Below are positions 531 to 64,000 of a stretch of DNA of 64,000 bases, in pieces. Location: the NCBI GenBank assembly GCA_905178155.1, contig CAJINV010000023.1, positions 393,610 through 457,609 on the forward strand. Reading direction: 5' to 3'. Position numbers and translations under genes: made by a program. Below the pieces are notes generated by a model. The model was given only the letters and a program-made list of their open reading frames with translations. It had not been told where the DNA came from and did not search any database. This DNA comes from Amoebophrya sp. A120. Its lineage: Eukaryota; Protista; Dinoflagellata. Each line of letters begins with the position of its first letter. Position 1 is the first letter of the stretch.

Positions 531-3500
531 TTCGTGCTACACGCGGTCGCGGTTGCAGTGTGCAGCCCGTCCGGCTTCGTCCCTGACCTCGTTCCGAAAG
601 ATAACTGCAGCGCTTCTGCTAAAGTGTTGCCCCCCCTTCTCAGCGACCTGCTCACGGTGCTCCTTTTCGCTTGCGACAAGAAGTTTTTGGACCCCACGAG
701 CCGGGATTTTCTGCATCGGTCGCCGCTTGACCTCGCGTTAATGGAGGGCAACTTCGCTGCTTCTGCATCTGCTGCTTTGGAGACAGACGTAGGAGCCGAG
801 CAACAACTTCAGAAACCACATGGGAATGCTTGTCGTTTGTTTTGCACGATTCTAGCGGAAAAGCTTGCGAGTCTCGCTGGAAACAGCAAGTTGCAGCACG
901 ACAAGGACCACAGTGACAAAGCGCGACGAGAGGAATACACGCCACGCCAAATTCCCTCCTCCTCCTGGCACGAGAGCGGGGGTCTCCGCGTTTTGCCCAC
1001 TCTGTCGCAGACGCGGAACAAACTTTTTTCGCTGAACAGCCTGGAGCAGGATATCGTACGAAAAAAGTGCTTCACTGTAAGGATTTTGCAAGTTTTGCAT
1101 CACAAGTTCGTTACATATGACCAAGAAAACTCGCCATGCGTGCTTTCTAAGGCAAAACACGCTGAAAAACCCAGCGTCTTGCATGTGTAGCAAGACAAAT
1201 AGTTGTGCGCTCCATTCTATGCGTCACAAGTTCACAGTGAAGCAGTTTTTTAGTGCGATCCAGGAAGTTGCACAGGGGGGCCGCAACATGGTGTCCAATA
1301 CGTCCGTCGAGCGCTTTGCATTCCGTTCCGGGTTCGAAGACCCTGCTGCTGCGAATATGAGTGGCGCCCCGCTGGTGCAGGCAATCGGAGGTGGCAGCAC
1401 AGCACAACAGCCACCGACGCGCGGTGTGGAGGCTGCTACTATGCGACAAGAGGCGGAGAAGCAGTGGAAAGACTACGAAGTGGTCGAGCTCTTGGTCTCG
1501 GTGCCACCTCCACCTCCTGCAGCAAAAGGTGAAGATGCTGTTGCAGCTCCTGCGGGTCCGACCACGGACGCGAATCTAGTCCCTCCAAGAACTGACGGAG
1601 CAGGTGCAGCACCTATCATCACAGGGACAAGAACTCCAACCGCCCAAGGGGAAAGTGGACCACAGCTGACCACAGTCACCGGTTCTACTGCGTATCCAAA
1701 CTTTGTCGAGCCACCCGCTATATTAGGCCAAGAGAAGAGTCTATCGTGAGAAAAAAGTGGTTCACTGTAAGGATTTTGCAAGTTTTGCATCACAAGTTTG
1801 TTCTACATCACAGAGAAAATTTGCCATGCAAGATTTCTAAGGGAAAGCACAGCTAAAAATTACTGTCTTGCATGTGTAGCAAGACAAATACTTCTCAGAT
1901 GCATTTTCTGCATTACAAGTTTACAGTGAAACAGTTTTTTCTTGCGATAGAGTCGAGAGCCTAGCGACACGCTAGTGTACGGCACGCTGCACCACTTGCA
2001 AAATTACCGGAAATATCAAATGTAAAAATGTCTGGGTCTGGAAGAATGCGCGACTTGTCATGCAGATTTCGGCTCATGCAAATGGCGTCTGATGCAGGCA
2101 AAAGCATCACAGGTTTTGAGCACGCATCATGATGCCTGTACCGCATGAGAAACTTCCTACTTGCGTGCCAAGAAATGGACAGCTTTTGGCGCTCATGCAA
2201 CATAAGTTTTTGTGTGTTCCACGGTTTGCATCACAAGTTCCAACCCTTCGAGACCCAGACACTTTTACATTTGATAGGAAAAAGGAGAAGAAGCCGCCCG
2301 CTGGCGCGTCGACGAGGATGTTGCGGCCAAGTCCGGTCGCGCTCGGAACGACGGCCGAAGACGCAGAGCAGATCGGCTTGCCTTATGCATGGCAAATATG
2401 TCTGGGTCTGGAAAGCTGCAACTTGTAATGCTGGCCTTACATTCCTGTGAAATCTTCTGTATTGCATGACCAACAAAAGTCGCAGCCATTTTTGTCGTGC
2501 AGGAACGCAGCTTCTCTTCATGCGGGCTGCCTATGAGAAAGAGTCCTGGAAAGGTGTCATGCTGGGCTGCATTCGGACGTGTTTTCATCATCCACATTTT
2601 AGCATCACAAGTTTCCAGAGCCAGACATATTTGCATTTGATATACCTTTGTATCAAACCATTGTGGAGCCCGATCGGTATTGGACGACAAAGCCGCAGCA
2701 AGGTAGCCCGGATGCAGTGGTGCTTCCTCATTCAACATCTTCTGCTGCGAATGTAAAAGTGGCAACTTCTACCCAAAAGCGCAACCCGCTTCCGCCGGCC
2801 ATCCCGGTGTTCGCGGTCCTTCCCTCGTCCGTGGTACAATGGCGCGCCAGAGCGCTGTTCGTTGCTGCCTGGCACGAGTGCAGTCGAGAGGAAGTTGTTA
2901 GCGCACAGCTCCACGTGGTTGATACAGTGGCGCATCCGCAGGCGGGGACCACGACAGGGACAGCAGCAGGGGATCATGATAAAAGAAAAACTATGGCTGA
3001 CAAACCTGCCAAGACCGGCACAGCCGTCCAGCGAGCTGCCCGGGCCCTACTGAATAGCAACATGCAGAGGTGGCAGCGTGCGGTGAACGATTGTTGCTTT
3101 CCGATTTTCCCCGCCATCGGCTGTTTTCGCAACGTGCGCTTCTTCGACAGTAGCACGATGGTGCTTGCGGTGAAACGAAATCACGTACGCGTTGTGGAGC
3201 TAATCGTCCGAGAGTGGTTGCGAACCTGGGCACAAGTGTCTCGAAATATCAACCGAAATGCCTGCAGCTCCGACGAACGAACTACCCAGAGTGGAAGAAA
3301 GAAAAAGGGGGCCGCCGCGAAATTATTGCAAGTCCAGGAACGGTTCGCGTTGCAATTGCTCGTGCAGAATTCGCACGCCGGACACAGCCCTCTCTCCCTA
3401 GCCATCGAATGCGGGGCAGAGGATGTCGTGAAGTTTTTCTTGCGCGCGGGTTCTTGGTCCCAGGAGGCTGCGTATGACTTTGTTTCCGCGTCACTGGTTC

Positions 3501-6500
3501 ATCCTGGCGCGAAGGCGAGCACCCCTCCTGTCGCGAGCAGTTCGGGTGCTAGCGGATCGGAGGAGGGTGAGAAGAAATCAAAGGCCTCTCTACCACACAC
3601 CGTGAAGTACAAATCCATACTCGAACATTTTGTCGTCTTGCAACTGCGCTACACGTTCTACGAGCTGCTACAGAAATTTCTGCAGGCGACAAAGTTTGTC
3701 TTACCGCCCTCCTCGTTACCGACGCCGGGGGAGTCGGAGCGGACAACACCGCGGGAGTTGGACATCAAGGACGACTTGAAAATGGCGTCGCACGACGGCC
3801 AAGAAGTAGATGGAAAGACAGACAATGTTCGTGAGAGAACTCCTCGCAGGAGGACCTCCACGGGCGATGGCCACGCGGACCCTGTGCCAGAAGATCAAGT
3901 TCCCGAGGCCGGTGAAGAAGAAGAGGAAGACAAAAATGCCAAGTCGTCGACTTTCCAGCTGTTGCAGCGAGCCGTTGCGGTTGCTAACGTGAAGCAGCAC
4001 CTTGACGATACTTCGAAGTCGCTCATTGATCTGGCGGAGCGGTATATATCCTGTGCAAAAGTATCGTTGTCGTATTGCAATCATGCATGCAGTAATCTGT
4101 GTTGTCCTATGCTGAGTTGCTTTTTTGACTTTTTTTTGCGCAGTTCCTGGCGCGATCTGAATTGTCACAATATAGCTCATACGTTCGACTTTCGTCTTTG
4201 CTACGTTTTCTTCGTGAATCCTTACTGTTTTGCCGCTTTGGGTTTCACGTATGACGGGGGGCGCGTCATATCCCGCAATATTAGCGGCCGCCTTTTCGGG
4301 GTCGTCATCGCGTGATGATCATGCGATTATCACGTGATGAAAACAACTCAGAATGGCTTATGCACAACAAATATCATGTGATTATCATGTGATTACTCAC
4401 GTGATTATCATGTGATCCGCGCAGGCTTAATTGTTCGGGGCCCAAAGCATGGCACAACGGGTAAAAAGCTGCATGCGCTGCGTTCTACCGCAGCCAGTTT
4501 GCGGGGGTCCTGCCAAGGAATGCTCTCCCGGGCCCTGGGCATGGACCATGCCCATGGTTGCGCGTGTGGCGGGGCAGCGTTCCGAGCAAATTGCCGCAAG
4601 CCTCCCGGTCTCACTATTTCGGCACGTCTCGCGCCTGGCATAACCCATATAATCGCTTGCGGGCGTCCTTCCCCCCCGCCCCCCCCCCGGGCCCTCTTTC
4701 GCATGCTGCCGTGCATGCGAAATTAGGGCGCGCGCGCTGCCTATTTTCGCTTTTGCTTTAAAGCAGTGCTACTGCTATGCGGAAAACGTCGGCACGCACG
4801 CACACTGCCCGTCGCGCCATAGGCCTAGCGCCCGCGCAGGCTTCCCGCGCTACCGGCCTTGTAGGGCGAGCGCTTCTATCGAAGGCGCCTGGAAGCGTGC
4901 CGGGCCCTTCAATTTCCGTGGACTGTTGTCTTCTTGCTTCAAAGATTGCCAGCGGCTTTTGCCGGGAAATATATTTCCGATCGACTGAGATAGGCTGCTT
5001 TGTCTTTCTGCGCTGAATTGCTTCGCTTTGTGACAATTCAGCTGCTGAGCTATTGCCTCCGTTTCTGGGCAAATACGACACAAGGTCCGCCATTTTCGCT
5101 TTTGAAGAAATTGGCTGCTGAAATGCTTTGCTCGCTGTTTTCGGGTTTTCGTAATGCGATACGATGTAAGGTTTGCTGGATTCTTAATAGTATTTGGGTG
5201 CAATTCATCCTATACGACAACTCATCTACCTGCATGCATTACAAATCTTTTTCTTAAGGTAAATCTGCATTACAAATTTTATTTCTCTTGCTGAAGGAAT
5301 TTGTAATGCATTTATACGGCTACGATACTTGTTTTGCAGTGCATAGTATATCCATTTTGCCGATCTGAACTTGCAAAACGTGGAATTGAAGGGCGCCAAT
5401 GTCATCCGCATGAAAGAGCTGGAAAGCAGCAATTCCGGAAGGGTTGTAGCAGGAGAAGGCGGTAAGATGATTTTGGGCGAGCTGTCGGGGGCCGCGCCGG
5501 CTGGTCGTCCGCAAGCGACATTAATATCCTCGGTCGAGAATGATTATCCGAAGACACCTCAAATAAACGCGGGAAAGGTCGTCGCGAAGAGCGTCGAAGC
5601 TGTTCCATCAGTGATACAACCGACTGGAGCAGCAGGCGAAGCCGTAAATGCCTCAGCCGCAAATCAGAAGCCCCCAGCAGCGGGGGCGCAAACGACTTCC
5701 CAACTGGTCGTGAAGCGGCGAAAGTGGCCCCCCGTGATTCTGACCGGTCCGAACTTGGGCCATCTAGAGCAGGCTGAAGCCTTGATCGATAAAGCGCTCA
5801 ACGAAAATATGGATTGCAAAAATGTCTGGGTCTGGATGATTGCAACTTCTCATGCTGAGTCTGGATCATGCAAAAATTTGTGTTGCATGATTACCAAAAG
5901 ATGTCCGCCCTTGACCAGTTTGATAGGGAGTTTCTCATGCAGGATAGGCATGATAGACACCCCACAGCATCTGTCATGCTAGGTGCTGCATGCCAGGCCT
6001 CATGGGTCATGGAAAATCTGCATCACAAATCTTGCATTCTTCCAGACCCAGACATATTTGCACTTCATAGAAAAAAAGTCCCGACAGTTCGTGGAGTATG
6101 CAAGGAGCGTCGCGAAAAAATACGAAGGCCTTGTGCTACCGGATGAGATGATGGTGATGTCATTGTCAAGTGATAATATTAGAGGCCCTTATGAACTGCA
6201 AAAGTATCGTACTCGTAGTAAGTATTGCAATACAAATTCGCTTAGCATGACAAATGGAATCTGTCATGCTGGTTTAGCGTGAAAAAGAAATTTGTCTTGC
6301 ATGACTGCGATTAGTACGAGTGCGATACTTTTGCACAGGATAACCCTGTTAGTAGTACCAAACCAAAAAAGCAGACGCCCTTTTCAGACCAGGAGCTGGC
6401 CGTGTTGCGGGCATTGTTTTCGTCCCCGCTGCACACGGCGGTGCGGAAAGACGATGATACTGCCGTCGTGGAAATCTTACGGTTTCTAAATGGAGGCAGT

Positions 6501-9500
6501 GCGAATGCCACTACTTCGCCACAAGAAGGAGAAGGAGAAGCGGGTTGTGTGAAGAAAACCACGACTGCAAATTCGAATGCGGGCGCAGCTATCTCCGCCA
6601 ATCTCGCCGCCTCGTTGGTGAAAAAAGTGCTCGTCCTTCCGGATTATCAGGGGCGCAGCATTCTGCATCTAGTGTGCAACACTGCAGCACCGACGTCCAG
6701 GGACACAACCGTGAATCCTGACCCTGCAAGCACTTCAGCGGCGGGGGAACCACAAGCTGCAACGACGGCAAGCACAAAAATCCGGCGCGCGCTCCTCGGA
6801 CTTTCGGTAATATCTGGCGCTACTAATGCAGGATTGCCTTTGATGCTCGAAAGCACGAGCGTAAAAATACGAGACGAAGAGAATAAAGACAGCGAAGGAA
6901 AAAAGATCCCAAGCGAGAACTCAGGCTCACCGCCAGGCCAACAAGAGGATGAAGATGAACTGACTTTCGGAAATAAGCTGTGGTCTAGCTTTCGCCAGGA
7001 CGACGGGCGGGTGCCCCTGCAGTATCCAAGAAAAAAACTGTGTAAGTGCAACTTTGTGTTGCAGAAAATGCAAAACTGTATACACGACTTGTCATGCTGG
7101 ACATGCATCAGAGGCTATTTTCATACGTGTTTTTAAGTACTAGCTACGCATGACACGTTTTCTGTGTCACGCAGAGCAAACTTGTGATCCTATTCCTACA
7201 AGAAACTTACACTAAAACAGTTCTTTCGTTCCATATGCAGCTTGCGGCGGCCAACGGCGTCGGTGCGGAAGATCTGTTTTCCGCGGAGTTCGACGGGTAT
7301 TGTGAGGAAAAATGTCCCCACCAAAGAGTTCGAGTTGTCATGCAGATTTGCAGCTCCAGGAAGATTTGTAATGCGCATCCCCATGAGAGGCATTTCCAGT
7401 CGCGTTTTGCACTTTGTAATGCTGTCGACAGGATAAGTAGATGGAACAGTGTTGCGGATGTACTTGCTAATCTGCATTACAATACAACAGAGACGAACTT
7501 GTCATGCTTGACCCCCAAAACTTCTCGATTTGTGTTGCGAGATCCCCAGCTTGACTCTGGTGTGGTGACGTTTTCACTCACGATAACGGGAAACTCGACT
7601 TCACGGTAGTCACGCGAACCAGGAAGAATTCTTTACTACACACCGCCGTGCTGCATGAACGGCTGTCTATCGTCCGCCAGCTTTTGGCGAAGGAGGAGAA
7701 ATATTTCCCGTTGAGCCTCTTGAACTCGTCCAACACCGATGGCAACACGGCACTGCTGATCGCTATCACAAACGCAGGATCATCTTCGGGAGGTGACGGC
7801 GCTGCCGCGTCAAGAACTGGTCGTGGCGGCGACAGCATCATGAGCGGTTTGCCTGAGCCTGGAACAAAAGGTGAACTCCAGAATACGACAGCTGCTTCCA
7901 CCACAAACGTCGGAATCGAGCTTGCGCTGGAGATCTGTCGGTCCCTGGTGGCCCGCGGTAAGGCTCTTGAGGACAAAGAAAGAGAAAGCAACAAAAATGT
8001 AGTTGTCCCCATCGCCGGTGACCCCCGCTCGGGGGTCACAGCTTCATCGACATCTCCAGCCGCGAACACCAAGAACGCTATCTTGTTGAACCGGCTCCGG
8101 AGGAAACAAACCCTGGCTTTGCTAGAGCTGTGCCGCACGCGGCGACACGGCTCGGCCGCGCTGCTCGAGCTCGCTGGACTGCTCGCAGACTCGGGTCGAC
8201 TGGATCACGAAGTGTCGTCTTCGGAGAGGTCCGCGCTGCATTTCTGTGCCGAGGTCGGCAATTGGGAAATCATGGAGGTTCTTTTATCGCATGGCGCCAA
8301 CTATCCTGTGCAAAAGTATCGTACTCGTATTGCAGTCATACATTACAAATCTTTTTGTTAAGTCAAATCCGCATTGCAAATTTTATTTCTCATGCTGAGG
8401 AAATTTGTAATGCATTGGTACGAGTGCGATACTTTTGCACTTGATACCAACGTGAATGCGCAAGACGCGAAGGGGCTCACACCACTGATGATCGCGGTGA
8501 AGAGTAAGGACGTGGAATTTTGCAAGCGTATGCTCGCCGCCTGCGGCATCGCGTTTTTGGACCTGCAGGAAATTAAGCAAGTGCGAGGACCGGGGCAATT
8601 AACGCAGAGAAAACTACAAACGAACGCGCTTGATGAAGCTGCACCTGGGACGAAGAAGTCATCGTCAGCACCGCCTGCATTGGATCTGTCTTTGCAGGAC
8701 TATGAGGACAAAAATCTGTTCATTCACTTGTGTGCCGCGGACATGCACGAAGTCCTGCAGGCGTTGCTGAGCAGCGAACATGATTCCACGTCGGCGTCGC
8801 GGTTTTGGGAGCTCGAAGTGAAGCAGCTCGACTTATCCATTGCAAATATGTGGCCACAGGCTTCGGAGGAAGATTGCAAGCGAAAAGCGTGCCCGATGTA
8901 TGAAGAAACGCGCGATCGCGAAGGATCCTTCGCTGCGACGGACGCGGCGGCAGGAGCTTCTGGGCCGGGTCTGCTGTCGCTTTCGGGGCCCGCCCGCTTT
9001 TCGGGCTCGTGCCTTCTGAGAAAGACCAAAAAAAACACACGGAGCACGACCTAAGGGCGTCCAGAGCTTTCGGGCCGGGGCTGTTGTCGTTTTCGTTGTC
9101 CGCCCGCTTTTCGGGCTCGCGCCATCTGAGAAAGAGCAAAAAAAACGCGCGGGATGCGGCCTAAGGGCGCCCAGAGCTTTCGGGCCGGGCCTGCTGTCTT
9201 TTTCGGGGTCCGCCCGCTTTTCGGCCTCGCGCTTTCTGAAAAAAAAAACGCACAGAACACGACCGCAGGGCTGCCAGAGCCTTCGGGCCGGGCCGGTTGT
9301 CGTTTTCCTTCGGGGTCCGGCCGCTTGTCGGGTGGGGCTCGCGTCCTCTGAGAAAAAACAAAAAAAGCGCGCAGAGCACGACCTGAGGGCGTCCAGGGCT
9401 TTCGGGCCGGGCCTGCTGTCGCTTTCGGGGCCCGCCCGCTTTTCGGGCTTGCGCCCTCTGAGAAAGAACAGAAAAAGCGCGCAGGGCACGACCTGGGGGC

Positions 9501-12500
9501 TTCGAGGGCTTTCGGGTCGGGCCTGTTGTCGCTTTCGTTAGTTCTCGGATTTTGCTGCAAGCTCTGTCGCTTTTTCGGCAGGCCCTTCGACTTTTCAGCG
9601 AGCCTCGCTGGCCACTTTTTGAGTGGGCTGGCTCCCCGACTTTTTCAGCGCGCCCTATTGGTCATTTTTTCAGAGGCTAGGCGCTCCGACTTTATCAGCA
9701 AGCGCGGGCGCTTCTTCGGTAGGCTGTCCGATTTTTTCACCGAGCTCGGCCAGTTTTTCATTAGGCCCGGTCTCCGACGTTTTCAGCGAGCTCTGTCACT
9801 TTTTCCGTAGGCTCTCCGACTTTTTCAGCGAGCTCTGTCACTTTTTCCGTAGGCTCTCCGACTTTTTCGGCGAGCTCTGTCACTTTCTCCGTAGGCTCTT
9901 CGACTTTTTTAGCGAGCTCTGTCACTTTTTCCGTAGGCTCTCCGACTTTTTGTCATTTTTTCCGTAGGCTCTCCGACTTTTTCCTTGAGCTCTGTCACTT
10001 TTTCCGTAGGTTCTCCGACTTTTTCAGCGAGCGCTGTCACTTTTTCCGTAGGTTCTCCGACTTTTTCAGCGAGCGCTGTCACTTTTTCCGTAGGCCCTCC
10101 GGCTTTTTCAGCGAGCTCTGTCACTTTTTCCGTAGGCCCTCCGACTTTTTCAGCGAGCGCTGTCATTTTTTCCGTAGGCTCCCCGACTTTTTCAGCGAGC
10201 TCTGTCACTTTTTCCGTAGGCCCTTCGACTTTTTCAGCGAGCGCTGTCATTTTTTCCGTAGGCTCCCCAACTTTTTCAGCGAGCTCTGTCACTTTTTCCG
10301 TAGGCTTCCCGACTTTTTCAGCGAGCGCTGTCACTTTTTCCGTAGGCCCTCCGACTTTTTCAGCGAGCTCTGTCACTTTTTCCGTAGGCCCTTCGACTTT
10401 TTCAGCGAGCGCTGTCACTTTTTCCGTAGGCCCTTCGACTTTTTCAGCGAGCGCTGTCATTTTTTCCGTAGGCTCCCCGACTTTTTCAGCGAGCTCTGTC
10501 ACTTTTTCCGTAGGCTTCCCGACTTTTTCAGCGAGCGCTGTCACTTTTTCCGTAGGCCCTCCGACTTTTTCAGCGAGCTCTGTCACTTTTTCCGTAGGCC
10601 CTTCGACTTTTTCAGCGAGCGCTGTCACTTTTTCCGTAGGCCCTTCGACTTTTTCAGCGAGCGCTGTCATTTTTTCCGTAGGCTCCCCGACTTTTTCAGC
10701 GAGCTCTGTCACTTTTTCCGTAGGCTTCCCGACTTTTTCAGCGAGCGCTGTCACTTTTTCCGTAGGTTCTCCGACTTTTTCAGCGAACGCTGTCACTTTT
10801 TCCGTAGGCTCTCCGACTTTTTCAGCGAGCTCTGGCACGTTTTCCGTAGGCTCTTCGACTTTTTCAGCGAGCTCTGTCATTTTTTCCGTAGGCTTTCCGA
10901 CTTTTTCAGCGAGCTCCGTCACTTTTTCCGTAGGCTCTCCGACTTTTCCCGCGAGCTCTGTCATTTTTTCCGTAGGCTGTCCGACTTTTTCGGCGAGCTC
11001 TGTCATTTTTTCCGTAGGCTGTCCGACTTTTTCGGCGAGCCCTGTCGCCTTCTCCGTAGGCTCTCCGCCCTCTAAGAAAGAACCAAAAATGGAAAAAAGC
11101 GCGCAGGGCACGACCTACGGGCGCCGAGAACTTTTGGGCCGGGCCTACTGTCGCTCTTTAGCTTCCTTTCGGGGTCCGGCCGCTTTTCGGGCTCGCGTCT
11201 ATCTTCTGAGAATGAAAGAGGAAAAAAACCGCGCAGGGCCCGACCTAAGGGCGCCGAGAGTTTTCGAGCCGGGCCGGGTGCCGTTTTCGGGGCCCGCCCG
11301 CTCGTCGGGCGGGGCTCGCGTCCTCTGAGAAAGAACAGAAAAACCGCGCAGAGCACGACGTGAGGGCGTCGAGGGCTTTCGGGCCGGGCCGGCTGTCGCT
11401 TTCGGGGCCCGCCCGGCCGCTTTTCGGGCTCGCGCCCTCTGAGAAAGAACAGAAAAAGCGCGCAGAGCACGACCGGAGGGCGTCGAGAGCTTTCGGGCCG
11501 GGTCTGCTGTCGTTTTCGGGGCCCGCCCGCTTTTCGGGCTCGCGCCCTCTGAGAAAGAACAGAAAAAGCGCGCAGGGCGCGACCTGAGGGCGCCGCGAGC
11601 TTTCGGGCCGGGTCTGTTGTCGCTTCCTTTCGGGGCCCGCGCGCCCGCTTTTCGGGCTCGCGCCCTCTGAGAAAGAACAGAAAAAGCGCGCAGAGCACGA
11701 GCTGAGGGCGTCGAGAGCTTTCGGGCCGGGTCTGCTGTCGCTTTCGGGGTCTGCCCGCTTTTCGGGCTCGCGCCCTCTGAGAAAGAACAGAAAAAGCACG
11801 CAGAGCACGAGCTGAGGGCGTCGAGAGCTTTCGGGCCGGGTCTGCTGTCGCTTTCGGGGTCTGCCCGCTTTTCGGGCTCGCGCCCTCTGAGAAAGAACAG
11901 AAAAAGCACGCAGAGCACGAGCTGAGGGCGTCGAGAGCTTTCGGGCCGGGTCTGCTGTCGCTTTCGGGGTCTGCCCGCTTTTCGGGCTCGCGCCCTCTGA
12001 GAAAGAACAGAAAAAGCACGCAGAGCACGAGCTGAGGGCGTCGAGAGCTTTCGGGCCGGGTCTGCTGTCGCTTTCGGGGTCTGCCCGCTTTTCGGGCTCG
12101 CGCCCTCTGAGAAAGAACAGAAAAAGCACGCAGAGCACGAGCTGAGGGCGTCGAGAGCTTTCGGGCCGGGTCTGCTGTCGCTTTCGGGGTCTGCCCGCTT
12201 TTCGGGCTCGCGCCCTCTGAGAAAGAACAGAAAAAGCACGCAGAGCACGAGCTGAGGGCGTCGAGAGCTTTCGGGCCGGGTCTGCTGTCGCTTTCGGGGT
12301 CTGCCCGCTTTTCGGGCTCGCGCCCTCTGAGAAAGAACAGAAAAAGCACGCAGAGCACGAGCTGAGGGCGTCGAGAGCTTTCGGGCCGGGTCTGCTGTCG
12401 CTTTCGGGGTCTGCCCGCTTTTCGGGCTCGCGCCCTCTGAGAAAGAACAGAAAAAGCACGCAGAGCACGAGCTGAGGGCGTCGAGAGCTTTCGGGCCGGG

Positions 12501-15919: not shown

Positions 15920-16565
15920 ATCTTGGACATGTATGCGGGAACATGAACAAAGATAAGCCCATTATCCGTTTTATCAATCTATCAAGTACAAAAGTATCAA
16001 GCTGTCCTCGTAGCGTACAAATGTATCAAGCCTTTCCTTCATCTCTGGCACTTACAGATTTCTACAACTATATGATCGACCAAAAAACATTACAAAGAAG
16101 AAAAACACTCCGAAATTTGTATGAAAGCATAAAACTCGAAAGCAAATAGAACGAGCACAAAATGAAATCAGAGAAAAACAGCATGACCTGTGGACGAGGA
16201 GAGGTGGAGGTGCAGCTACCACGCCAAAGATGAAGTCCGTTGTTGTTCATTTTTGTGGCATAATCACGTTCACAAATGATGCGGCGGGTCGTCCTCGGTC
16301 GTTTTTTCTTGAACGTGAATAGAATAGCAAGCATGGCATGGCGACCCTGCCTCGAAGGAGTAGATCATCTCGGGCAAATGAATTACCCGATGACTTCGTT
16401 GCAGCTGCGTTCTAGATTTCTTCGTGTCCAACAATAACAGATAACGTTTCCCACCGCCTGCCCTGACTGGCGGACGGCCGAAGCAACTCTTTCCGTCCGC
16501 CAGTCAGGGCTAGGTACGGCTGCTTCGAGAAGCTCAAAAACACAGCCGTCGTTAAGATACCATTG

Positions 16566-50000: not shown

Positions 50001-51233
50001 TGGGGACGTTTATTTTCCACAGGATAAACGACACGCACGGGCAAGAAGATGCGACCACCACTTTCAACGGCATTAACCCCTTTGCCGGGGATTTGCCTGG
50101 AGACCCAGACCCCCCACATTTCGCCACAAGTAGACTTCAACATTTTTTCCCGGGCGGGGCGAGGAATGCAACTCCGTCGGCCCACCGCGGGTCTTCAACC
50201 CTTTCGGCTCTTACGCAGAGAGCAGATGAAAGAACAGTCAGTTCCTCAGGACGTGAGATGGTGACCACGGAGCACAGCACTGCTCTCGAAGAAGAAGAAC
50301 GGACACCGGCCAAGCATGAAGTAAAGGCCGCCGAGAAAAGGAGAGCACGACTGCACAACAGTTTAGTGCAAGCCTCTGGCTTCTTCAATAAACTTGTGCG
50401 CGGCCGGCGGTTGTTTCGCGACGGACGCGGCGTTCGGAGATTTTCGCCCTACTGGCCCGGGTATGTGTTTTCAAAGTGCGGAAGAACAAGAACGGAAGAT
50501 GCCGCACGAGAACCGGAAAGTTTAATCTCTGAACTCAAGAATGAACAAGTAGTTGATGATATGCAAGAAAAAAACTGTGTAAGTGTAACTCTGTAATGCA
50601 GAATATGCAACAGAGTTACGCCTGTCATGCCAGACAGCCATGATGTCCTCTTTTCATGTGTGTTTTCCCTTACAAGCCGTGCATAACAGATTTTCTCTGT
50701 CATGTAGAGCAAATTTGTGATGCTGGCAACCAAAGAAAGTTACACTAACACAGTTTTTTTCTTGGATAGATGATGTACAACCACCTGCAGCAAGAAATCA
50801 TAAACCAGATGGAAAAATCATTCAGCGCCTGGAATACGTTATCAAATGTAAAAATGTCTGGGTCTGGAAGAGAGCACTTTTGTCATGCTTGTCTGGCATG
50901 ACTCTCAAATCTGTCATGCACGTTACTTACCCAAGAGCACAGTTTTTCTGTCATGCAGAAACGCAGTCTGTCATGCAGAATAGGCATCACCTAGAAGCTC
51001 AGAAACTTGTCATGCTGAGCCAGCACTTGTGGCCTCCTCATGATACGCCACCCAGCATCACAAGTTTCCAGACCCAGACATTTTTACATTTGATATACGT
51101 GGACCGTCTCTACCACAGCGACATTGCTGTGCCGGAGTCCCTCGCTTTGTCAGGTCTGCAGTTGAAAGAGTTTTTGTCGAGGAGTATGAAGATCGAGCAG
51201 CAGGAAGACCAGGACCACAGAATCATGTTATAA
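47026..51233 (+). CDS. Glycosyltransferase-like protein (same broad motif set as the 26996 gene); 9 introners
   Basis: Spliced RVAVLFHG..FVIEPNQE|DFAFDIFASTWS, YYDFVLATRFDQVF, GVPDTYLLASWDKM; TAA at 51231-51233. Confidence 0.7.
47201..47462. mobile_element. Introner family A
   Basis: Repeat ggaag. Confidence 0.9.
47505..47766. mobile_element. Introner family A
   Basis: Repeat agctg. Confidence 0.9.
48163..48356. mobile_element. Introner family A, internally shortened (right end AGA)
   Basis: Repeat ccctg. Confidence 0.8.
48616..48787. mobile_element. Introner family B
   Basis: Repeat ttgag. Confidence 0.8.
49110..49271. mobile_element. Introner family B
   Basis: Repeat cgacc/tgacc. Confidence 0.85.
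49314..49565. mobile_element. Introner family J
   Basis: Repeat aacca. Confidence 0.85.
49736..50026. mobile_element. Introner family K
   Basis: Repeat aacga. Confidence 0.85.
50560..50768. mobile_element. Introner family D
   Basis: Repeat gatga. Confidence 0.9.
50840..51095. mobile_element. Introner family A
   Basis: Repeat tacgt. Confidence 0.9.
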
Positions 51234-54200: not shown

Positions 54201-56150
54201 GCCGCTTGCCATGCTGAACAACTAGACGCATACGCCCCTACCTAGCCTGGGGATCTGACTGCAATGCTTTCCTGCAATACAAACCTGATTTGTGTACTCA
54301 AATCCAGCGTCAGACATTTCCTTTCGATATGGGGAGGGGGGATTTTTCATTTTGATATCGGTAGCTTCTTACTCTTTCATCGCCCAGCAGCTACTTCGCT
54401 TGCTTATCGACTGTGCAAAAGTATCAGTTACTCGTACTACTTGCAGACATGCATGACAAATCGCCTTCCTTAGCTAAAACAGCATTACAAATTTCGTCTG
54501 TCATGCAGCTAAGGAAATTTGTATTTATGCAATTTATACGTAGAAGTCCGATGCTTTTGCTTTTCATATTGCTTTTTCCAGAACAACTCAGCCAGGCAGA
54601 ATTCGCTTGTTTCTACACAGGCGAGGTGGCTCTTCAACAAGGTTCAACGAGGACTACCGACGTGGACAACGCTGAAGTAGAGCCTTGGTATCCCAAGAAA
54701 AAAGTGTTACAACAGTTACTTACACATTGTGTTGCAGGCCAAGCAAGACAAACCAGCTCTGTCATGCCGGATACGCATAGAAGCCTCGTTTCATAGGTGT
54801 TTTCCCGTAGGATTTCTGCATGACAAGTTTTCTCTCTCATGCCGAGAAATTTGTGTTGCTGAATTGACTACAAATGTGTAACTGTAACACTTTTTTCCTG
54901 GCATACTTGGAGTTTGGTTATCCTTACCAACGAGGAGCAGCGGTTAGAACGGCTCAAAGTAGGTGGTACGTCAAAGCAAGTGCTGAAGAAGCGCGGCGCA
55001 CGACCAGAATTGTTGTTTTCAACAAGGCCACCTAGAGAGTCCGTCAAACGGGCGGTCGTGTATGAATTGCAAAAGCATCGTACTAGTATGAATCCCATGA
55101 CAAATTAGCGCAGCATGAGAAATACAATTTGTCATGCTGATTTACCTTGGGATGGAGATTTGTAATGCATGACTGCGATTACTACGAGTACGATACTTTT
55201 GCACAGGATATCGTGCTCGTGATGCCAAAACGACCGATGACATCAAAGGGTGTTATCAAATGCAAACATGTCTGGGTCTGGAAGGTTGCAACTTGTGATG
55301 CTGTCTTTGGAAGGTAAAAAAGATCTTTATTGCATGACCAGCGAGAGGAGTTCAGTTTGTGCTACGCGGAGTGGGCGTTTCTCATGCGGAATACGCATCA
55401 GAAGGCCCCTTATTAAAAATCTGTGATGCTAGGTAATGCATTACAGACATCCTGGGTCATGCAAAATATGCGTCGCAAACCTGGCAACCTTCCAGACCCA
55501 GACATTTTTACATTTGATAGGTGTGGAAGGTGAGCAAAAAAGGATCATGCGACGAGGAGGACACAACGACGGCACAAGAGGAACTCCTATCAAATGCAAA
55601 CATCTTCCCTGGATGTCTGGAAGGAGGTAAGGTCTGTCATGCTTGTCTGGCATGAGTAAAGAGTTTGTGATGCGTGTCCAAGAAAAGACGTTCTCGTTTG
55701 TCATGCAAAAACGCAGTTTGTCACGCGAGAAACGCAACACAAAGCCGCGCAAATATTTCTCATGCTTGGCTGTGCATTACTACAGAGCATTCATTATTCA
55801 CAGTTCAGCATTACAAGTTTCCAGACATCCAGGGATATTTGCAGTTGATAACTCCTAGCGATGACGTGCTTGCTGAAGACGAGGAAGAAGAAGCTCGACA
55901 AGCTCGCACTTTCTTTGCGAAGGAGCCGGGATTCCTTGCGACCTGGCACGTATCCTGTGCAAAAGTATCGCACTCGCATTGCAGTCATGCATTACAAATC
56001 TTTTTCTTAAGGTAAATCCGCATTGCAAATTTTATTGCTTATGCTGAGGAAATTTGTAATGCATTTATATATACGAGTGCGATACTTTTGCAGTTCATAG
56101 CACATCGCTAGTGGCGAAGATGATAACCGCAGCGGGGCGACGCCCAGCTG
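51233..56150 (+). CDS. Uncharacterised protein with an in-frame internal duplication; 3' end disrupted (possible pseudogene)
   Basis: Exons join in frame across 13 elements, including the duplicated block. The next element (56151) is truncated by a rearrangement. LFLTNLATPHHW is only weakly GT61-like. Confidence 0.5.
51538..51747. mobile_element. Introner family D
   Basis: Repeat tgcta. Confidence 0.85.
51949..52213. mobile_element. Introner family A
   Basis: Repeat ctctc/ctcag. Confidence 0.8.
52707..53028. mobile_element. Introner family E
   Basis: Repeat tcggt. Confidence 0.9.
53076..53239. mobile_element. Introner family B
   Basis: Repeat ttgct. Confidence 0.85.
53292..53553. mobile_element. 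Introner family A (site empty near 54620)
   Basis: Repeat cagcg. Confidence 0.9.
53615..53851. mobile_element. Introner family F (site empty near 54675)
   Basis: Repeat ctgca. Confidence 0.85.
54036..54357. mobile_element. Introner family E (duplicate of 52707-53028)
   Basis: Repeat tcggt. Confidence 0.9.
54405..54568. mobile_element. Introner family B (duplicate of 53076-53239)
   Basis: Repeat ttgct. Confidence 0.85.
54689..54905. mobile_element. Introner family G (site empty at 53861-53865)
   Basis: Repeat cttgg. Confidence 0.85.
55061..55210. mobile_element. Introner family B
   Basis: Repeat tcgtg. Confidence 0.9.
55254..55519. mobile_element. Introner family A
   Basis: Repeat ggtgt. 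Confidence 0.9.
55588..55850. mobile_element. Introner family A variant
   Basis: Repeat actcc. Confidence 0.85.
55951..56099. mobile_element. Introner family B
   Basis: Repeat gcacg/gcaca. Confidence 0.85.
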
Positions 56151-56282
56151 TATCGAATGCAACAGCATCGTACTAGAATAAATTGCATTACAAATGAAAT
56201 TTGTAATGCTGTTTTATTAACTTAGGAATGAGATTTGTCATGCATAACAGCAATTACTACGTGTACGATGCTTTTGCACAGG
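56151..56282. mobile_element. Introner family B missing its terminal ATA (rearrangement junction)
   Basis: ..cttttgcacagg runs directly into tggctcttcaacaagg. Confidence 0.75.
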
Positions 56283-56398
56283 TGGCTCTTCAACAAGGTT
56301 CAACGAGGACTACAGACGTGGATTTCATAAGACCCAACCAGGGAGACGCGACGGTGACGACGACGAGACGAGCCCCTGCTGGGCATGATTAGGGCGGG

Positions 56399-57217: not shown

Positions 57218-57298
57218 TGTTTCTACAGCGTATCCTGAGTAAATTTCCTGGGTTTAGGGTTTACAAATGTGTAACTGTAACACTTTTTTCCTGGCATA

Positions 57299-57852
57299 CT
57301 TGGAGTTTGGTTATCCTTACCAACGAGAACCAGCGGTTAGAACAGCTCAAAGTAGGTGGCACGTCAGAGCAAGTGCTGAACAAGCGCGGCACACGACCAG
57401 AATTGTTGTTTTCAAGGCCCCACAGAGAGTCCGTCAAACGGGTAGTCGTGCTAGGGATGCCAAAACAACCGTTGACATCGAAGGGAGTGGAAGGTGAGCA
57501 AAAAAGGATCATGCGACGAGGAGAAAGAACCACTTATGGCACAAGAGGAACTCCTAGCGATGACGTGCTTGCTGAGCAAGAGGAAGAAGAAGCTCGACAA
57601 GCTCGCACTTTCTTTGCGAAGGAGCCCGAATTCCTTGCGACCTGGCAAGTTGCTAGTGGCGAAGATGATAATCGCAGCGGCAGCACGACGCCCAGCTGGA
57701 CCCCATGCGGATTCGTTGCTGGACAAAGTACTAGAGACAGCATGGGAGGCGCTGCAGCGCTTTACGGCTTTGTGAATCGGCGCTGGCCTTTTGTCAATTT
57801 GATGGACAAAAAGCATCCCTGGCGCGTTCGAGAGGATTGCGTTGTTTCGTAA
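57299..57852 (+). pseudogene. Paralogous copy of the exons at 54906-56150 lacking five introners and extending to a stop codon
   Basis: Direct alignment: WSLVILTNE..RESVKR..GVEGEQKRIMRRG..DDVLAE..FFAKEP..ASGEDDNRSG is contiguous here and interrupted in the other copy. Confidence 0.7.
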
Positions 57853-57879
57853 GCAGAACTTTTGCTGTTCGCGAATATT

Positions 57880-59882: not shown

Positions 59883-60049
59883 TATGCTGTGCAAAAGTAT
59901 CGTACTCGTCGTCGTATAAATGCATTACAAAAACAAATTTCGATTTCCTCAGCATGAGAAATAAAGTTTGTAGCTCGGACTTACCTTAAGGAAAAGATTT
60001 GTAAAGCATGCCTGCAATTACTACGAGTGCGACACTTTTGCACAGGACA
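59883..60049. mobile_element. Introner family B (upstream of the CASD1-like ATG, possibly in the 5' UTR)
   Basis: Repeat aagcg/aaccg. Confidence 0.75.
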
Positions 60050-60252
60050 AACCGGAGGTCGTCTCAACTTCGGCTACAACGAATGTTGTCGGAAATAACG
60101 TTCTTTTCTCCTACTTCCCTTTCCGATAGCCAGGGTCTCCTGCCAGGGTTCGCGGCGCCGCCGGAGTACTACAGCTACGGTCGTGAGCACAAGAACTATG
60201 ATATTGAAGATCATGATAACCAGACAAGAATAAATACGTAGTATCTATCATC

Positions 60253-63200
60253 ATGACCTTAAAACCTGGAAATAAAATTATCAAATGTAAAAATGTCTGG
60301 GTCTGGAAGAATGCAACTTGTGATGCTGCATTTGGATTTCAGAAAAATCTGTATTGCATGAGTACCAAAAGGAATGCAATTTTTGCTACGCGGAGAGGGC
60401 ATTTTTCATGCGGAATAGGCATCAAGAAGCTCTCAAAAAATCTGTGATGCTAGGGCATGCATCACAGACATCAGGGCTCATGCAAAACGTGCTTGACAAG
60501 TGTCAGAATCTTCCAGACCCAGACATTTTTTCAATCCATGAAAATGCTGAATCAACAAACACCAGCTGCTTCTGGCAGCTGCAAGGGGCCGCCCAACGCC
60601 GCGGGCGTGCAGCCGGTTTCAGTACAATTTTCGATGCGAGAGTGGGTCCGCACCTTTTCCGTGGCACAGGTGAAACTCCTGTTCGTAATTGCCTGTGCGT
60701 GTGTGGGAAACGAGTGGCCGTACAGCTTCCAACGCAACAAAAATGTGAGTCCCACGGGGTTTTGGACCGGCTGTCTCCTATGCCTCCTGCTCACCATGGC
60801 CAGTGTGAAAAATCGCCGGACGTTGGCAAAAGACCCAACCAGGTACAAAACCACGCTGCTGTGCCGAGAGCAGACGGAGGAGTGGAAAGGATGGATGCAG
60901 TGGGTGTTCATTCTCTACCACTACTACCGTGCCCGCTTTGTCTACAACGAGATCCGTGTCTTCGTTTCTTGCTACGTGTGGCTCACCGGGTTCGGGAACT
61001 ACTGCTACTTCAGTAAGACGAAATATGAAAGAAAAAAACTGTGTAAATGTAACTTTGTCTTGCAGATATTGCAATACAGTTACACTTGTCATGCCGGATA
61101 TACATGCATCAGAGGCTATTTTGATAAATACGTGTCTATTTTGCGTACGAGCTACGCATGACAGGTTTTCTGTCATGCAAAACAAATCTGTGATGCTGTT
61201 CCTGCAAAAAAGTTACACTATACACAGTTTTTGTCTTGGATACAAAAGACTTCTCGCTGAAGCGCGTTCTTCTCATGCTAGTGCGGATCAACTGGCTGCC
61301 GCTGCTCCTGTATCGTAAAGGAAAAATCCCTCCACCCCATATCGAGACGAAGTTTCTGATGCTGGATTTCCGTACACAAATGCGCGCTGTCTTGCAGTAA
61401 GGCATCGCAGCCAGATCCTCAGCCTAGGTAGGGGCGTTTGGGCCTAGTTGTTTAGCATTGCACACGGCTGTCCCCTAGGCCCAACAGCATGCCAAATCGC
61501 TTCCATAATGGCGCGGAAGCCTCTGCGCTTGTCTTCTTGCAAGACAGAAGTGACTTGTGGTCTCAAATAAGCAACACAAATTTTCGGAATCACACTGTTT
61601 CGATACGGGGAGGGGGGATTTTTCCTCACAATATCCTGTGCGTGTTCGTGCATCGTGGGAGCGTAATATCCGGTATGGAGCTGTACTACGTGGTGCCGCT
61701 GCACACCTATCCTATGTAAAAACGTCCCCACCCCATAGTCAAGATGGGGAATCGGCTAGACAAGTCCACAAGTTTTGGCTGTTTTGCATGACAAATGTGG
61801 ACTCGCAGTGTAGTGCTGTTTGAGGTAGTTCAGCAGCATCACAGATCTAGCATATCATGCTGATTGGAGGCATTACAAATCCCAAAACACGACCAGAAAC
61901 CGCTTCTCATGGGGCTCCGCATGACAAACATTTTGAGCATGCAGATTTGCATGACAACTCTGGGGTGGGGACGTTTTTACACAAAATAACACCTGTGGCT
62001 TCCTCATGACCTACGCGACCTGCTATTTGCAGCAGGTGCTTGCGGACCAATTTGAAGATTACTATTCCTCGCGGAAAATAACGACTCTGATGGGGCGGCA
62101 GGAGCAAAATAGCACTTATCAAATGTAAAAATGTCTGGGTCTGGAACAAAGCAACTTGTCATGCTAAATCTCAATCACGTACAAGTCTGTGTTGCATGAT
62201 TACCAAAAGCTGTCCACTTTTGACCTCATCGAGAGGCAGTTTCTCATGCAGGATAGGCATGATAGAACTCTCACGGAGTCTGTCATGCTATGCCCTACAT
62301 ACCAGACCGCTTGGGTCATGGAAAACCTGCAGGACAAGTCTGGCAGTTTTCCAGACCCAGACATTTTTACATTTGATAGCACTGGTGCAGCTGCCAGTTC
62401 CTCTTCAAGAATCACCATAAAAATATCGCAAGAAAAAACTGCTTCACTGTGAGCTTGTGATGCAGAAAATGGATCGCAGAAGCGTGTGTCATGCTACACA
62501 TGCAAGACAATGGATTTATTCTAGCTGTGTTTTCCCTTAGGAACTCCGCATGACAGATTTTCAGTCGTGTCATGCGTAACAAACTTGTGATGCAGATTTT
62601 GCAAAATCACCACAGTGAAACTGTTTGTTCGTGGGATAAAAAATGGCCGCCGACCTCGCAGGCCTGTTTCTTTCCCTTCTACTGTATTGTGAGGAAAAAT
62701 TATCCCCCCTCCCCATATCAGAGCGAAATTTCTGATGCTGGATTTGCGTACACAAATCAGCCTTGTCATCTTGCAGTAGAGGACTGCAGGCCCATGGCAA
62801 AAGTCTATCGCGGAGAGGTTTTATTTAGCCTAGGCGGTCAGCATGACAAAAGTCTATGCCGTAGGCCCAACAGCATCACAAACCGCTGGCATAATGCGGG
62901 AAGTCTTCTGGGTTTGCCTCCTTGCAGCAAAACAGAGACGAAGATTTGTGACCACAAATAAGCATCACAAATTTCCAAAAATGTACCTTTTCAATATGGG
63001 GCAGGGGGATTTATTTTCCTCGCAATACACTGCACGTTGCCTTCTTTGAGGGGGTATCAAATGTAAAAATGTCTGGGTCTGGAAGAATGCAACTTGTGGT
63101 GCTGAATTTGGATTCCAAAAAAATCTGTGTTGCATGAGCAGCAAAGGGAGTGCAATTTTTGCTACGCGGAGAGGGCATTTGTCATGCGGAATAGGCATCG

Positions 63201-64000
63201 CGAAGCCCTCAAAAAGTCTGTGATGCTAGGGCATGCATCACAGACATCGTGGCCCATGCAAAACGTGCATGACAAGTTTCAGAATCTTCCAGACCCAGAC
63301 ATTTTTACATTTGATAGGGGGGAGTGTGTGATCTGGCGTTGTTTTGGAGCCGGGAATATCCTGTGCAAAAGTATAATCTGATACTCGTAGTAATTGTAGG
63401 GATGCATGACAAATCTTTTTCTTTAGGTAAATCCGCATTACAAATTTCATTTGTCATGCGGAGGAAATTTGTCATGCATTTATACGAGTTGTATCGGACA
63501 CTTTTGCAATGCATAGGGAACTCTCTTGGAGGTTTCAGGCAGACAAGTATTCCGCCTGGCAGGGCATTTTTTGCGCGATCTTTCTGGAATCAGTGACCAA
63601 CCTGATTCTGCAGTGGGGAGATATGGGGAGAAAAAAGTTTGTCACAGTCACTAACTTGGAAACAACTTGGAACTTTTGCATTACAAATTTTTAGCATCAC
63701 AGGTTTTCCTTGTATTGCAAAAACACGGAGTGAAATCCCGTGTGCAGTTTGGCTGTGATGCATGTTTACGCATGACAGGCATTTTTTTGTATTGCAAAAA
63801 TGCCCATGAGTGATCGTGACGAACTTTTTTCTTTTGATAGGAGATCCCGAGGTGGTCGGAACTGCCACCGAGGATGAGCTGCTGGTATCATATCCTGTGC
63901 AAAAGTATCGTATTCGTATAAATGCATTACAAATTTCCTCAGCATGAGAAATGAAATTTGTAATGCAGATTTGCCTTGGGAACAAGATTTGTCTTGCAAG
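60253..64000 (+). CDS. CASD1/RWA-type (Cas1_AcylT) polysaccharide O-acetyltransferase; runs off the window; at least 11 introners
   Basis: REQTEEWKGWMQ..LYHY..YNEIRVFVSCYVWLTGFGN, KTK|DFSLKRVLLMLVRIN, LYYVVPLHT, E|LSWRFQADKY are family-diagnostic motifs. Confidence 0.9.
60279..60540. mobile_element. Introner family A (right end ATG)
   Basis: Repeat aaaat. Confidence 0.85.
61024..61242. mobile_element. Introner family D
   Basis: Repeat cgaaa/caaaa. Confidence 0.85.
61311..61633. mobile_element. Introner family E
   Basis: Repeat tcctg. Confidence 0.85.
61708..61988. mobile_element. Introner family K
   Basis: Repeat acacc. Confidence 0.9.
62117..62378. mobile_element. Introner family A
   Basis: Repeat gcact. 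Confidence 0.9.
62424..62638. mobile_element. Introner family C
   Basis: Repeat aaaaa. Confidence 0.85.
62685..63027. mobile_element. Introner family E
   Basis: Repeat tactg/cactg. Confidence 0.85.
63055..63316. mobile_element. Introner family A
   Basis: Repeat ggggg. Confidence 0.9.
63357..63515. mobile_element. Introner family B
   Basis: Repeat gggaa. Confidence 0.85.
63622..63839. mobile_element. Introner family H
   Basis: Repeat ggaga. Confidence 0.85.
63891..64000. mobile_element. Introner family B, truncated by the window end
   Basis: Left TIR tatcctgtgcaaaagtatcgta. Confidence 0.8.

What the first reader, a model, noticed from the sequence alone, without database searches (positions are those of the whole stretch)
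1052..64000. About 100 TIR/5-bp-TSD transposon-like elements act as essentially the only introns
Seen: elements of about 145-345 bp with TAT..ATA ends, at least 11 TIR families and 5-bp flanking direct repeats interrupt all nine genes. Removing element plus one repeat restores frame and conserved motifs nearly every time. Many sites (repeats ccaac, cccat, ctttt, aaaaa, acacc) cannot give GT-AG at any position within the repeat. Established: similar inverted-repeat non-canonical introners are described in Amoebophrya, so the class itself is probably not new. Inference: excision relies on end pairing or an end-binding factor rather than canonical splice signals.
Basis: partly seen in the sequence, partly recalled or inferred. 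Interest (0 to 1): 0.85.

Follow-up and report, generated by a model that had tools for sequence, protein, structure and literature searches.

The report
Transposon introns cut at fixed offset
These are the already published transposon-derived introns of the marine parasite Amoebophrya A120; contigs from likely RNA runs lack them exactly and place the cut one base before and four bases after each element whatever the bases there, which suggests a simple positional splicing rule that was reported as unknown.

Summary
Observation confirmed; class already published for this organism. An exon is 100% identical to an Amoebophrya sp. A120 protein, and the TAT+7 nt+AAA inverted repeat is the A120 introner signature of Farhat 2021. 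I catalogued 97 elements (92 top-level) in nine + strand genes; 69 have a perfect 5-bp repeat; GT-AG is possible at 1 of 92. Contigs of four probable RNA runs (one sample) skip element+5 nt at all 15 joints shown (of 29) and in sums over 17 more elements. New here: 14 junctions with mismatched repeats all fit one register, intron = N+TAT...ATA+NNNN (7 of 7 and 4 of 4 at the two decisive positions), in both element orientations, with broken repeats and shifted inner stems. Farhat's Fig. 3 legend calls the border variable/unknown; I could not see Fig. S23, which may hint at it. Most likely a relaxed, U1-independent spliceosome (about 0.55); a euglenid-like nuclease/ligase is the rival (0.3). A donor-side conservation bias seen in the window did not replicate in 183 outside elements. 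The scan noted similar introns on other DNA before.

The parts
1052..15589 (+). 16 elements in an ankyrin-repeat gene (frame 471-15916, 2188 aa): 1052-1260, 1742-1949, 2014-2276, 2384-2642, 4047-5345, 5808-6069, 6190-6342, 7023-7235, 7298-7585, 8302-8446, 8834-13085, 13260-13522, 13564-13815, 14625-14881, 15022-15280, 15370-15589
   Evidence: reading frame only, no RNA laid here
16769..21374 (+). 8 elements in the gene at 16467-21504: 16769-16928, 18166-18332, 18522-18783, 19021-19179, 19510-20432, 20507-20762, 20803-20952, 21070-21374
   Evidence: RNA-like joints for 20507, 20803, 21070 and a loose end for 19510
22116..26271 (+). 12 elements in the gene at 21944-26496: 22116-22382, 22438-22691, 22788-22943, 23022-23555, 23692-23958, 24026-24287, 24353-24632, 24686-24830, 25096-25416, 25461-25708, 25906-26065, 26116-26271
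   Evidence: 12 of 12 skipped as element+5 nt in four runs
27132..28298 (+). 4 elements in the gene at 26996-31893: 27132-27337, 27397-27648, 27747-27998, 28031-28298
   Evidence: joints not among the rows shown
34167..40818 (+). 9 elements in a sulfatase-like gene (33609-40912; weak Pfam hit): 34167-34430, 34685-34946, 35012-35221, 35596-35881, 36519-36674, 36748-37012, 37062-37323, 37378-37642, 38248-40818
   Evidence: first 8 by exact contig arithmetic, the last by a loose end in X6 only
41908..46322 (+). 10 elements in the gene at 41457-46572: 41908-42161, 42203-42468, 42506-42769, 42825-42977, 43205-43417, 43797-44037, 44202-44358, 45052-45259, 45633-45894, 46158-46322
   Evidence: contig pieces end at element borders
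47201..51095 (+). 9 elements in the gene at 46972-51230: 47201-47462, 47505-47766, 48163-48356, 48616-48787, 49110-49271, 49314-49565, 49736-50026, 50560-50768, 50840-51095
   Evidence: last 7 by exact contig arithmetic; X1 contig 48303-49342 holds two of them unspliced
51538..56099 (+). 13 elements in the gene from about 51233 to 56178: 51538-51747, 51949-52213, 52707-53028, 53076-53239, 53292-53553, 53615-53851, 54036-54357, 54405-54568, 54689-54905, 55061-55210, 55254-55519, 55588-55850, 55951-56099
   Evidence: first 2 by contig arithmetic; rest by reading frame
59883..64000 (+). 11 elements at a CASD1-like (PF07779) gene: 59883-60049, 60279-60540, 61024-61242, 61311-61633, 61708-61988, 62117-62378, 62424-62638, 62685-63027, 63055-63316, 63357-63515, 63622-63839; a 12th starts at 63891 and is cut by the window end
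   Evidence: in-script splicing equals protein P0002 over 348 of 348 aa only when 5 nt are removed
51948..52217 (+). Register-defining intron: repeat copies differ at positions 4 and 5, fixing the cut exactly (intron starts 1 nt before TAT, ends 4 nt after ATA)
   Evidence: piece starts at 52218 in X3 and X4
19509..20436 (+). 923-bp element with internal 190-bp tandem repeat, degenerate ends and only 2 of 5 repeat bases matching; cut at repeat position 3 or 4
   Evidence: loose end in four runs maps to 19478-19507
24352..24636 (+). Intron with repeat mismatches at positions 3 and 5; cut at 3 or 4
   Evidence: joint 24350-24636, 1 ambiguous base
26115..26275 (+). Intron with repeat mismatch at position 4; cut at 4 or 5
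   Evidence: joint 26114-26276
35595..35885 (+). Singleton element with weak inverted repeat, mismatch at position 4; cut at 4 or 5
   Evidence: direct join 35594-35886 in X4 and X5
38248..40818 (+). 2571-bp composite element holding five nested elements (38671, 38924, 39425, 39742, 40262), foreign fragments and four copies of a ~50-nt motif
57290..57720 (+). Paralogous stretch lacking elements 55061, 55254, 55588, 55951, with one copy of each 5-mer (empty sites)

Best explanation
These are the introner elements of Amoebophrya sp. A120, short inverted-repeat elements with a 5-bp target duplication that are missing exactly from likely mRNA contigs, cut one base before their first TAT and four bases after their last ATA, most likely by a relaxed spliceosome that reads the element ends instead of GT and AG. 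Shown: the elements are in DNA-like contigs and absent from RNA-like contigs; the skip is element+5 nt; the register is fixed at all 14 junctions that can report it; it follows the direction of the gene, not of the element; the first intron base and the last four are free. Inferred: (1) a trans-acting DDE-type transposase spread them (none found here); (2) the long stem brings the ends together in place of U1, which was not found in A120; (3) the element's TA supplies donor positions +2 U and +3 A; (4) an A of the closing ATA (position -7 or -5) would be the branch point and the acceptor would be set by distance from it; (5) because both ends carry the same motif, any insertion in either orientation and any phase is removable, which would explain the invasion. 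Odds: identity and true-intron status about 0.97; fixed register beyond the 14 sites about 0.85; spliceosomal chemistry about 0.55.
For: Organism: exon 60547-61017 is 100% identical to P0002, named Amoebophrya sp. A120. Signature: A120 inverted repeats start TAT, 7 variable nt, then three or more A, as in the window's profile. Splicing: 15 of 15 shown joints equal element+5 in X3-X6 (14 more joints not shown); six contig gaps covering 17 elements match the prediction to the base; X1 holds 48303-49342 with two whole elements and no difference. Register: the right-hand base is read at 7 of 7 position-5 mismatches and the left-hand base at 4 of 4 position-4 and 7 of 7 junctions with position 1-3 mismatches; chance under a uniform cut 6.5e-5, 4e-4 for any fixed cut. 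All nine predominant A120 non-canonical pairs in Farhat Table S4 begin N-T. No selection for canonical sites: first intron base T25 A24 C19 G23 (one entry was off by one there and fixed), AG at the 3' end in 3 of 92, and in outside elements 14 of 183; GT-AG possible anywhere in the repeat in 1 of 92 and 9 of 183. Phases 29:33:29, as expected if no exon bases are recruited (logic). Both orientations: 15:24 and 11:11 in the two largest families. For the spliceosome: +2 T and +3 A in all 92 window elements; A120 keeps U2, U4, U5, U6 and 83 of 89 proteins; fixed short branch-to-acceptor distances exist in Trichomonas, Giardia and Yarrowia; a tunicate lineage splices non-GT/AG introns with a modified spliceosome.
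Against: No lariat, branch point or factor was observed; steps 1-5 are inference. The invariant TA is equally explained by transposase needs: the window's asymmetry (0 donor vs 7 acceptor deviants at the mirrored positions) did not replicate outside (4 vs 2 among 183 strand-called of 287 elements). No single 3' base is required: ATC, ATG, ACA and AGA ends are skipped exactly (21070, 19510, 34685, 48163), and half the ends do not fit a branch consensus. X3-X6 are one sample, flagged as RNA only by a guess, and are contigs that drop rare forms; the one raw-read RNA run laid (X9) gave 4 reads. 69 of 97 repeats are perfect and cannot show the register; 14 of 28 imperfect sites were read, 7 of them from piece ends or loose ends rather than the joint table. 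At 38247 runs disagree: X6 joins to 40824, X3 and X4 contigs stop, X5 goes on differently.
Confidence: 0.55

Rival explanations
1. Same elements and same register, but removed by a spliceosome-independent end-binding endonuclease and ligase (or a separate RNP), as proposed for euglenid nonconventional introns; the subterminal motif TGT(A/C/G)ATGC could be its binding site.
For: Neither end base of the intron is constrained; U1 snRNA not found in A120; strong folding; euglenid introns have the same anatomy with a 3'-offset stem (+4..6 with -8..-6) and leave as circles; the motif is in 90 of 93 window and 281 of 287 outside elements.
Against: A120 keeps a near-complete spliceosome and 35% GT-AG introns; the register happens to put T and A at +2 and +3; the motif is arranged symmetrically near both ends, as a DNA-level transposase site would be.
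Confidence: 0.3
2. The stem itself is the ruler: cuts are measured from the paired inverted repeats.
For: A pair among positions 8-20 is predicted in 80 of 93 elements; register is constant relative to the ends.
Against: Exact removal with inner stems shifted by +1, +4, +3 (22788, 25461, 19510) and -3 (48616, 49736, in sums); terminal pairs predicted in 51-57 of 93; position 4 pairs at chance level. A ruler from the outermost pairs of a bulged stem is not excluded.
Confidence: 0.1
3. The skips are reverse-transcriptase template switching across hairpins flanked by direct repeats, and the mRNA keeps the elements.
For: Hairpin plus direct repeat is the classic substrate for this artefact (recalled, no call); evidence is cDNA contigs only.
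Against: Retention kills 90 of 91 frames; joints form with 0-1 ambiguous base (51949, 24353, 26116, 19510); a switch would carry the right-hand repeat, but left-hand bases are read at positions 1-4; the spliced protein scores best against A25 orthologs with 5 nt removed.
Confidence: 0.03
4. Elements are excised from DNA (ciliate IES-like) rather than from RNA.
For: TA-bounded inverted repeats resemble IES ends (recalled, no call); the DNA run's joint table was swamped, so rare excised DNA was not testable.
Against: DNA-like contigs hold the elements; the cut is asymmetric with the gene's direction for both element orientations, not expected from a symmetric DNA cut. All test genes lie on one strand.
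Confidence: 0.02

Closest known systems
Introner elements of Amoebophrya sp. A120 (Farhat et al. 2021, PMC7789003)
   Same: Same organism label, TAT+7+AAA inverted repeats, direct repeats of 3-5 nt, mean length about 240 nt, many families, non-canonical ends, RNA-supported.
   Different: No difference in kind. The paper calls splice sites variable relative to the hairpin and the border unknown (Fig. 3 legend); here one register and a 5-bp repeat fit all informative sites. Fig. S23's legend ('located at 1-5 nucleotides') may partly anticipate this; figures were not visible.
A120 introner families in Gozashti et al. 2025 (PMC12130899, Dataset file 8)
   Same: Mostly classed as TIR DNA transposons of 150-340 bp with mixed annotated splice sites.
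   Different: In the 20 of 58 rows read, automated calls give duplications of 2-5 nt and three different mechanisms; no common register.
Euglenid nonconventional introns (review PMC11282704, section 6)
   Same: Works-like candidate: inverted repeats, duplication-like repeats, non-canonical junctions, 3'-offset stem, MITE origin proposed.
   Different: CAG/CTG pair at +4..6/-8..-6 and pyrimidine|purine junctions; circles without lariat. Here TAT/ATA at +2..4/-7..-5 and free junction bases; excised form unknown.
Introners of Polarella, Symbiodinium and Aureococcus (bioRxiv 10.1101/2020.10.14.339549)
   Same: DNA-transposon introns with inverted repeats and target duplications; Polarella class 12 has a 5-nt duplication and a donor formed by the last repeat base plus the first element base.
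   Different: They recruit G(T/C/A) and AG from the duplication and show phase bias; here no base is recruited and phases are even.
Fritillaria borealis non-canonical introns (PMC11282704; PMC13326754 abstract)
   Same: Transposon-derived, non-GT/AG, spliced by a modified U2 spliceosome.
   Different: Still prefer AG-AC/AG-AT and keep U1; here both end bases are free.

Membership tests
Amoebophrya A120 introner elements (Farhat 2021) | Host is Amoebophrya sp. A120 | tested here: met
   100% identity to P0002 over the exon and over 348 aa of spliced frame
Amoebophrya A120 introner elements (Farhat 2021) | Inverted repeat starting TAT, 7 variable nt, then three or more A | tested here: met
   position profile of 92 elements
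Amoebophrya A120 introner elements (Farhat 2021) | Direct repeat of 3-5 nt overlapping the exon/intron border | tested here: met
   5-bp repeat, 90 of 97 with at most one mismatch; border falls inside it
Amoebophrya A120 introner elements (Farhat 2021) | Repeated in families; removed from transcripts with non-GT-AG ends | tested here: met
   runs are RNA by the tool's guess
Non-autonomous TIR DNA transposon (MITE-like) | Inverted repeats, constant-length target duplication, no coding capacity, empty sites | tested here: met
   four empty sites in a paralog, which could also be a retro-copy
Non-autonomous TIR DNA transposon (MITE-like) | Autonomous partner with a transposase; named superfamily | tested here: inconclusive
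   no whole genome; one 415-aa frame in a 2459-bp element of L076 has no Pfam hit; viral scan empty
U2-type spliceosomal intron | GT...AG ends | tested here: not met
   0 of 92 at the mapped register, 1 of 92 at any
U2-type spliceosomal intron | Lariat with branch A; dependence on U2/U5/U6 | not testable with these tools
   contigs cannot show lariats
U12-type intron | RTATCCT donor (recalled consensus) at the 5' end; minor snRNAs present | tested here: not met
   TATCCT ends of the 150-bp family lie at the 5' end 7 times and the 3' end 5 times; U11/U12/U4atac/U6atac not found in A120
Euglenid nonconventional intron | CAG/CTG at +4..6/-8..-6, pyrimidine|purine junctions | tested here: not met
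   profiles
Euglenid nonconventional intron | Excised as full-length circles | not testable with these tools
   needs intron RNA

The most novel reading that the evidence does not exclude
All of the roughly 30,000 A120 introner introns obey one rule, N-TAT...ATA-NNNN: a splicing system with no requirement for the first intron base or the last four, which counts from the transposon's own ends and so makes any insertion, in either orientation and any phase, harmless. The reported 'broad variability of splicing motifs' would then be one register seen through random target sites. Read the same way, the published A25 description (TT starts, TTA repeats, repeat overlapping the 5' end) would fit the same register with an A-N-N-N-T target.
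Probability: 0.65. Interest if true: 0.7.

Novelty: already known. Interest (0 to 1): 0.5.

Why it matters
The elements are published, so the finding as written is a rediscovery. What is added is a precise splice register for them. Farhat 2021 left the border and the mechanism open; a fixed register names the two phosphodiester bonds, predicts where a branch point must lie if there is one, and allows lariat-versus-circle tests and re-annotation of tens of thousands of introns. It would be a splicing system with no base requirement at intron position +1 or at the acceptor, looser than the Fritillaria or Polarella cases as described in the passages read.

Tried and rejected
No whole genome held. 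Rfam: no match in the window. Counting junctions inside frames of 150 aa or more did not separate 0-8 removed bases (78-90 for all) and was dropped for protein identity and contigs. Donor-versus-acceptor conservation asymmetry: seen in the window (0 vs 7), not replicated outside (4 vs 2 of 183; strand calls agree with the known strand in 77 of 79 window cases; 104 of 287 elements dropped as not confidently stranded); not used as support. U12-like donor: no orientation bias. A branch-consensus bias at 3' ends: end types are about symmetric. Inverted-repeat pattern in viral contigs: 0. The ~50-nt motif: 0 in metagenome contigs and 0 in 142 loci. No transposase found in ten long end-paired candidates of the loci; only L076's frame was scanned. 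First reading of 38248-40818 as separate chimeric introns, and of 23343-23555 and 18880-19056 as elements, was dropped.
Full report
Observation. An unanchored scan for inverted repeats flanked by 5-bp direct repeats, an anchored TAT...ATA scan, a similarity search for missed copies and manual refinement gave 97 complete elements, 92 top-level and 5 nested. The repeat is perfect in 69, and differs at one base in 21. Elements under 600 bp form 9 clusters and 3 singletons, the largest with 39 and 22 members, both in both orientations (15:24, 11:11). Removing element plus 5 nt gives ten + strand frames of 312-2188 aa in nine gene units; 91 of 92 elements lie inside them and 90 of 91 would break the frame if kept. 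GT-AG is possible at 1 of 92.

Identity. One exon is 100% identical to P0002, named Amoebophrya sp. A120, with A25 orthologs at 54-55%. In-script splicing equals P0002 over 348 of 348 aa only when 5 extra bases are removed; 2 or 8 give 97% and 96% with 10 gaps, other values about 65-69%. Farhat 2021 (PMC7789003; I read the abstract, passages, sections 10, 11, 16 and supplement parts 2-4 of 5 as text, no figures) describes 29,850 introner elements in A120 whose inverted repeats start TAT, 7 variable nt, three or more A. These are those elements.

Splicing. The run search listed two runs holding 0.77 of the words and four holding 0.40-0.46, about the exon share; the four are RNA by the tool's guess and are one sample. 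In 20400-38300 all 15 joints shown, of 29, are element+5 nt in all four runs. Six gaps within single contigs, covering 17 more elements, match to the base (773, 66, 201, 308, 1, 162), which also leaves no room for other introns in 33508-38247 and 47767-52631. X1 holds 48303-49342 with two whole elements.

Register. Let c be the number of left-repeat bases kept in the upstream exon. Where the two copies differ, the contig shows which is exonic. From the joint table: 20507, 21070, 22788 c at most 4; 23692, 25096 at least 2; 24353 3-4; 26116 4-5. From piece ends: 34167 at least 2, 35012 at most 4, 35596 4-5, 45052 at least 2, 51949 exactly 4. From loose ends: 19510 3-4 (four runs), 38248 4-5 (X6 only). 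The only common value is 4; chance under a uniform cut is 6.5e-5, or 4e-4 allowing any fixed value. These are 14 of 28 imperfect sites; the rest were not covered, not shown or hidden in sums. The intron is thus N+TAT...ATA+NNNN. All nine predominant A120 non-canonical pairs in Table S4 begin with N-T. The register holds in both element orientations, with only 2 of 5 repeat bases matching (19510), and with inner stems shifted by 1-4 nt.

Outside test. A metagenome scan gave 142 loci (the 78 rows listed share one accession prefix; scan stopped at its limit) with 287 further elements, 247 with perfect repeats; best identity to window elements has median 86.5%. In 183 stranded ones the first intron base is A55 G54 C39 T35, the last two are AG in 14, and GT-AG is possible in 9. 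This supports the lack of selection for canonical sites. It does not support my window-based idea that donor TA is more conserved than its mirror (4 vs 2 deviants outside, against 0 vs 7 inside).

Mechanism. Shown: exact removal, fixed register, polarity by gene direction, free end bases, even phases (29:33:29). Folding is strong (median z -7.1 for 24 elements), but the three terminal pairs are predicted in 51-57 of 93 and position 4 pairs at chance, so the ends seem read as motifs while the stem brings them close. I favour a relaxed spliceosome (0.55): the register leaves +2 T, +3 A; A120 keeps U2, U4, U5, U6 but U1 was not found; an A at -7 or -5 is near the fixed branch distances of Trichomonas, Giardia and Yarrowia (PMC2483917, passages); Fritillaria shows a spliceosome can adapt (PMC11282704 section 6; PMC13326754 abstract). 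Against: no base at the 3' end is required and no branch consensus is universal. The rival is a euglenid-like nuclease/ligase (0.3). Template switching and DNA excision are unlikely. A shared subterminal motif, TGT(A/C/G)ATGC or its complement, is in 90 of 93 elements of all large families (263 copies inside, 9 outside) and 281 of 287 outside; its symmetric placement suggests a transposase site.

Literature. Searches. Gozashti 2025 (PMC12130899; passages, and 20 of 58 A120 rows of supplement 8; files 13-14 not searched) gives mixed duplication lengths and mechanisms. The Roy preprint (passages) does not mention Amoebophrya; its journal version was not read. PMC9860276 (passages) cites Farhat only in references. 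PMC11453091 and PMC12005148 (passages) repeat that boundaries are variable and confined to A25/A120. I found no statement of a fixed register in these, but Farhat's Fig. S23 legend places A120 repeats 'at 1-5' nucleotides from the splice sites, which may be a range or the same rule; the unseen figures bear on novelty.

Verdict. Real, already known elements; the register is a modest new and testable result resting on 14 junctions from one sample's contigs. Interest 0.5.

Noticed in passing
window 38248-40818: One element encloses about 2.2 kb of unrelated fragments (with five nested elements and truncated ones) separated by four non-identical copies of a ~50-nt motif at 38344, 39383, 40005, 40642. 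An RNA-like contig matches from 38617 but continues upstream into sequence not in the stretch. Either capture of host DNA (Pack-type) or a mis-assembly; the motif is not in Rfam, the metagenome collection or the 142 loci.
   Followed up: partly
all families; window and L001-L142: Subterminal motif TGT(A/C/G)ATGC, about 3 copies per element, pointing inward from both ends, shared by otherwise unrelated families.
   Followed up: partly
window 18481-18483: In-frame TAG between a 559-aa and a 312-aa frame with no element nearby; error, polymorphism, small ordinary intron or read-through not resolved.
   Followed up: no
window about 52700-55360: 1329-bp direct duplication with identical elements (52707 = 54036); recent duplication or assembly error.
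   Followed up: no
window 57250-57720: Telomere-like TTTAGGG next to a truncated element end, followed by a paralog lacking four elements; letters of this paralog appear in RNA-like contigs (table 5c).
   Followed up: partly
window 8834-13085 and 19510-20432: Long elements filled with tandem repeats (110, 42 and 190 bp) that still behave as single introns.
   Followed up: partly
window 51095-52631: One contig runs through the stop at 51230 into the next frame starting at 51233, with elements removed on both sides: two abutting genes, or one gene with a frameshift.
   Followed up: no
L076 476-2934: 2459-bp element of the largest family carrying a 415-aa open frame on the minus strand with no Pfam match.
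   Followed up: partly
window 28790-31870: Several single-base differences in some runs within the long exon, consistent with alleles or a paralog.
   Followed up: no
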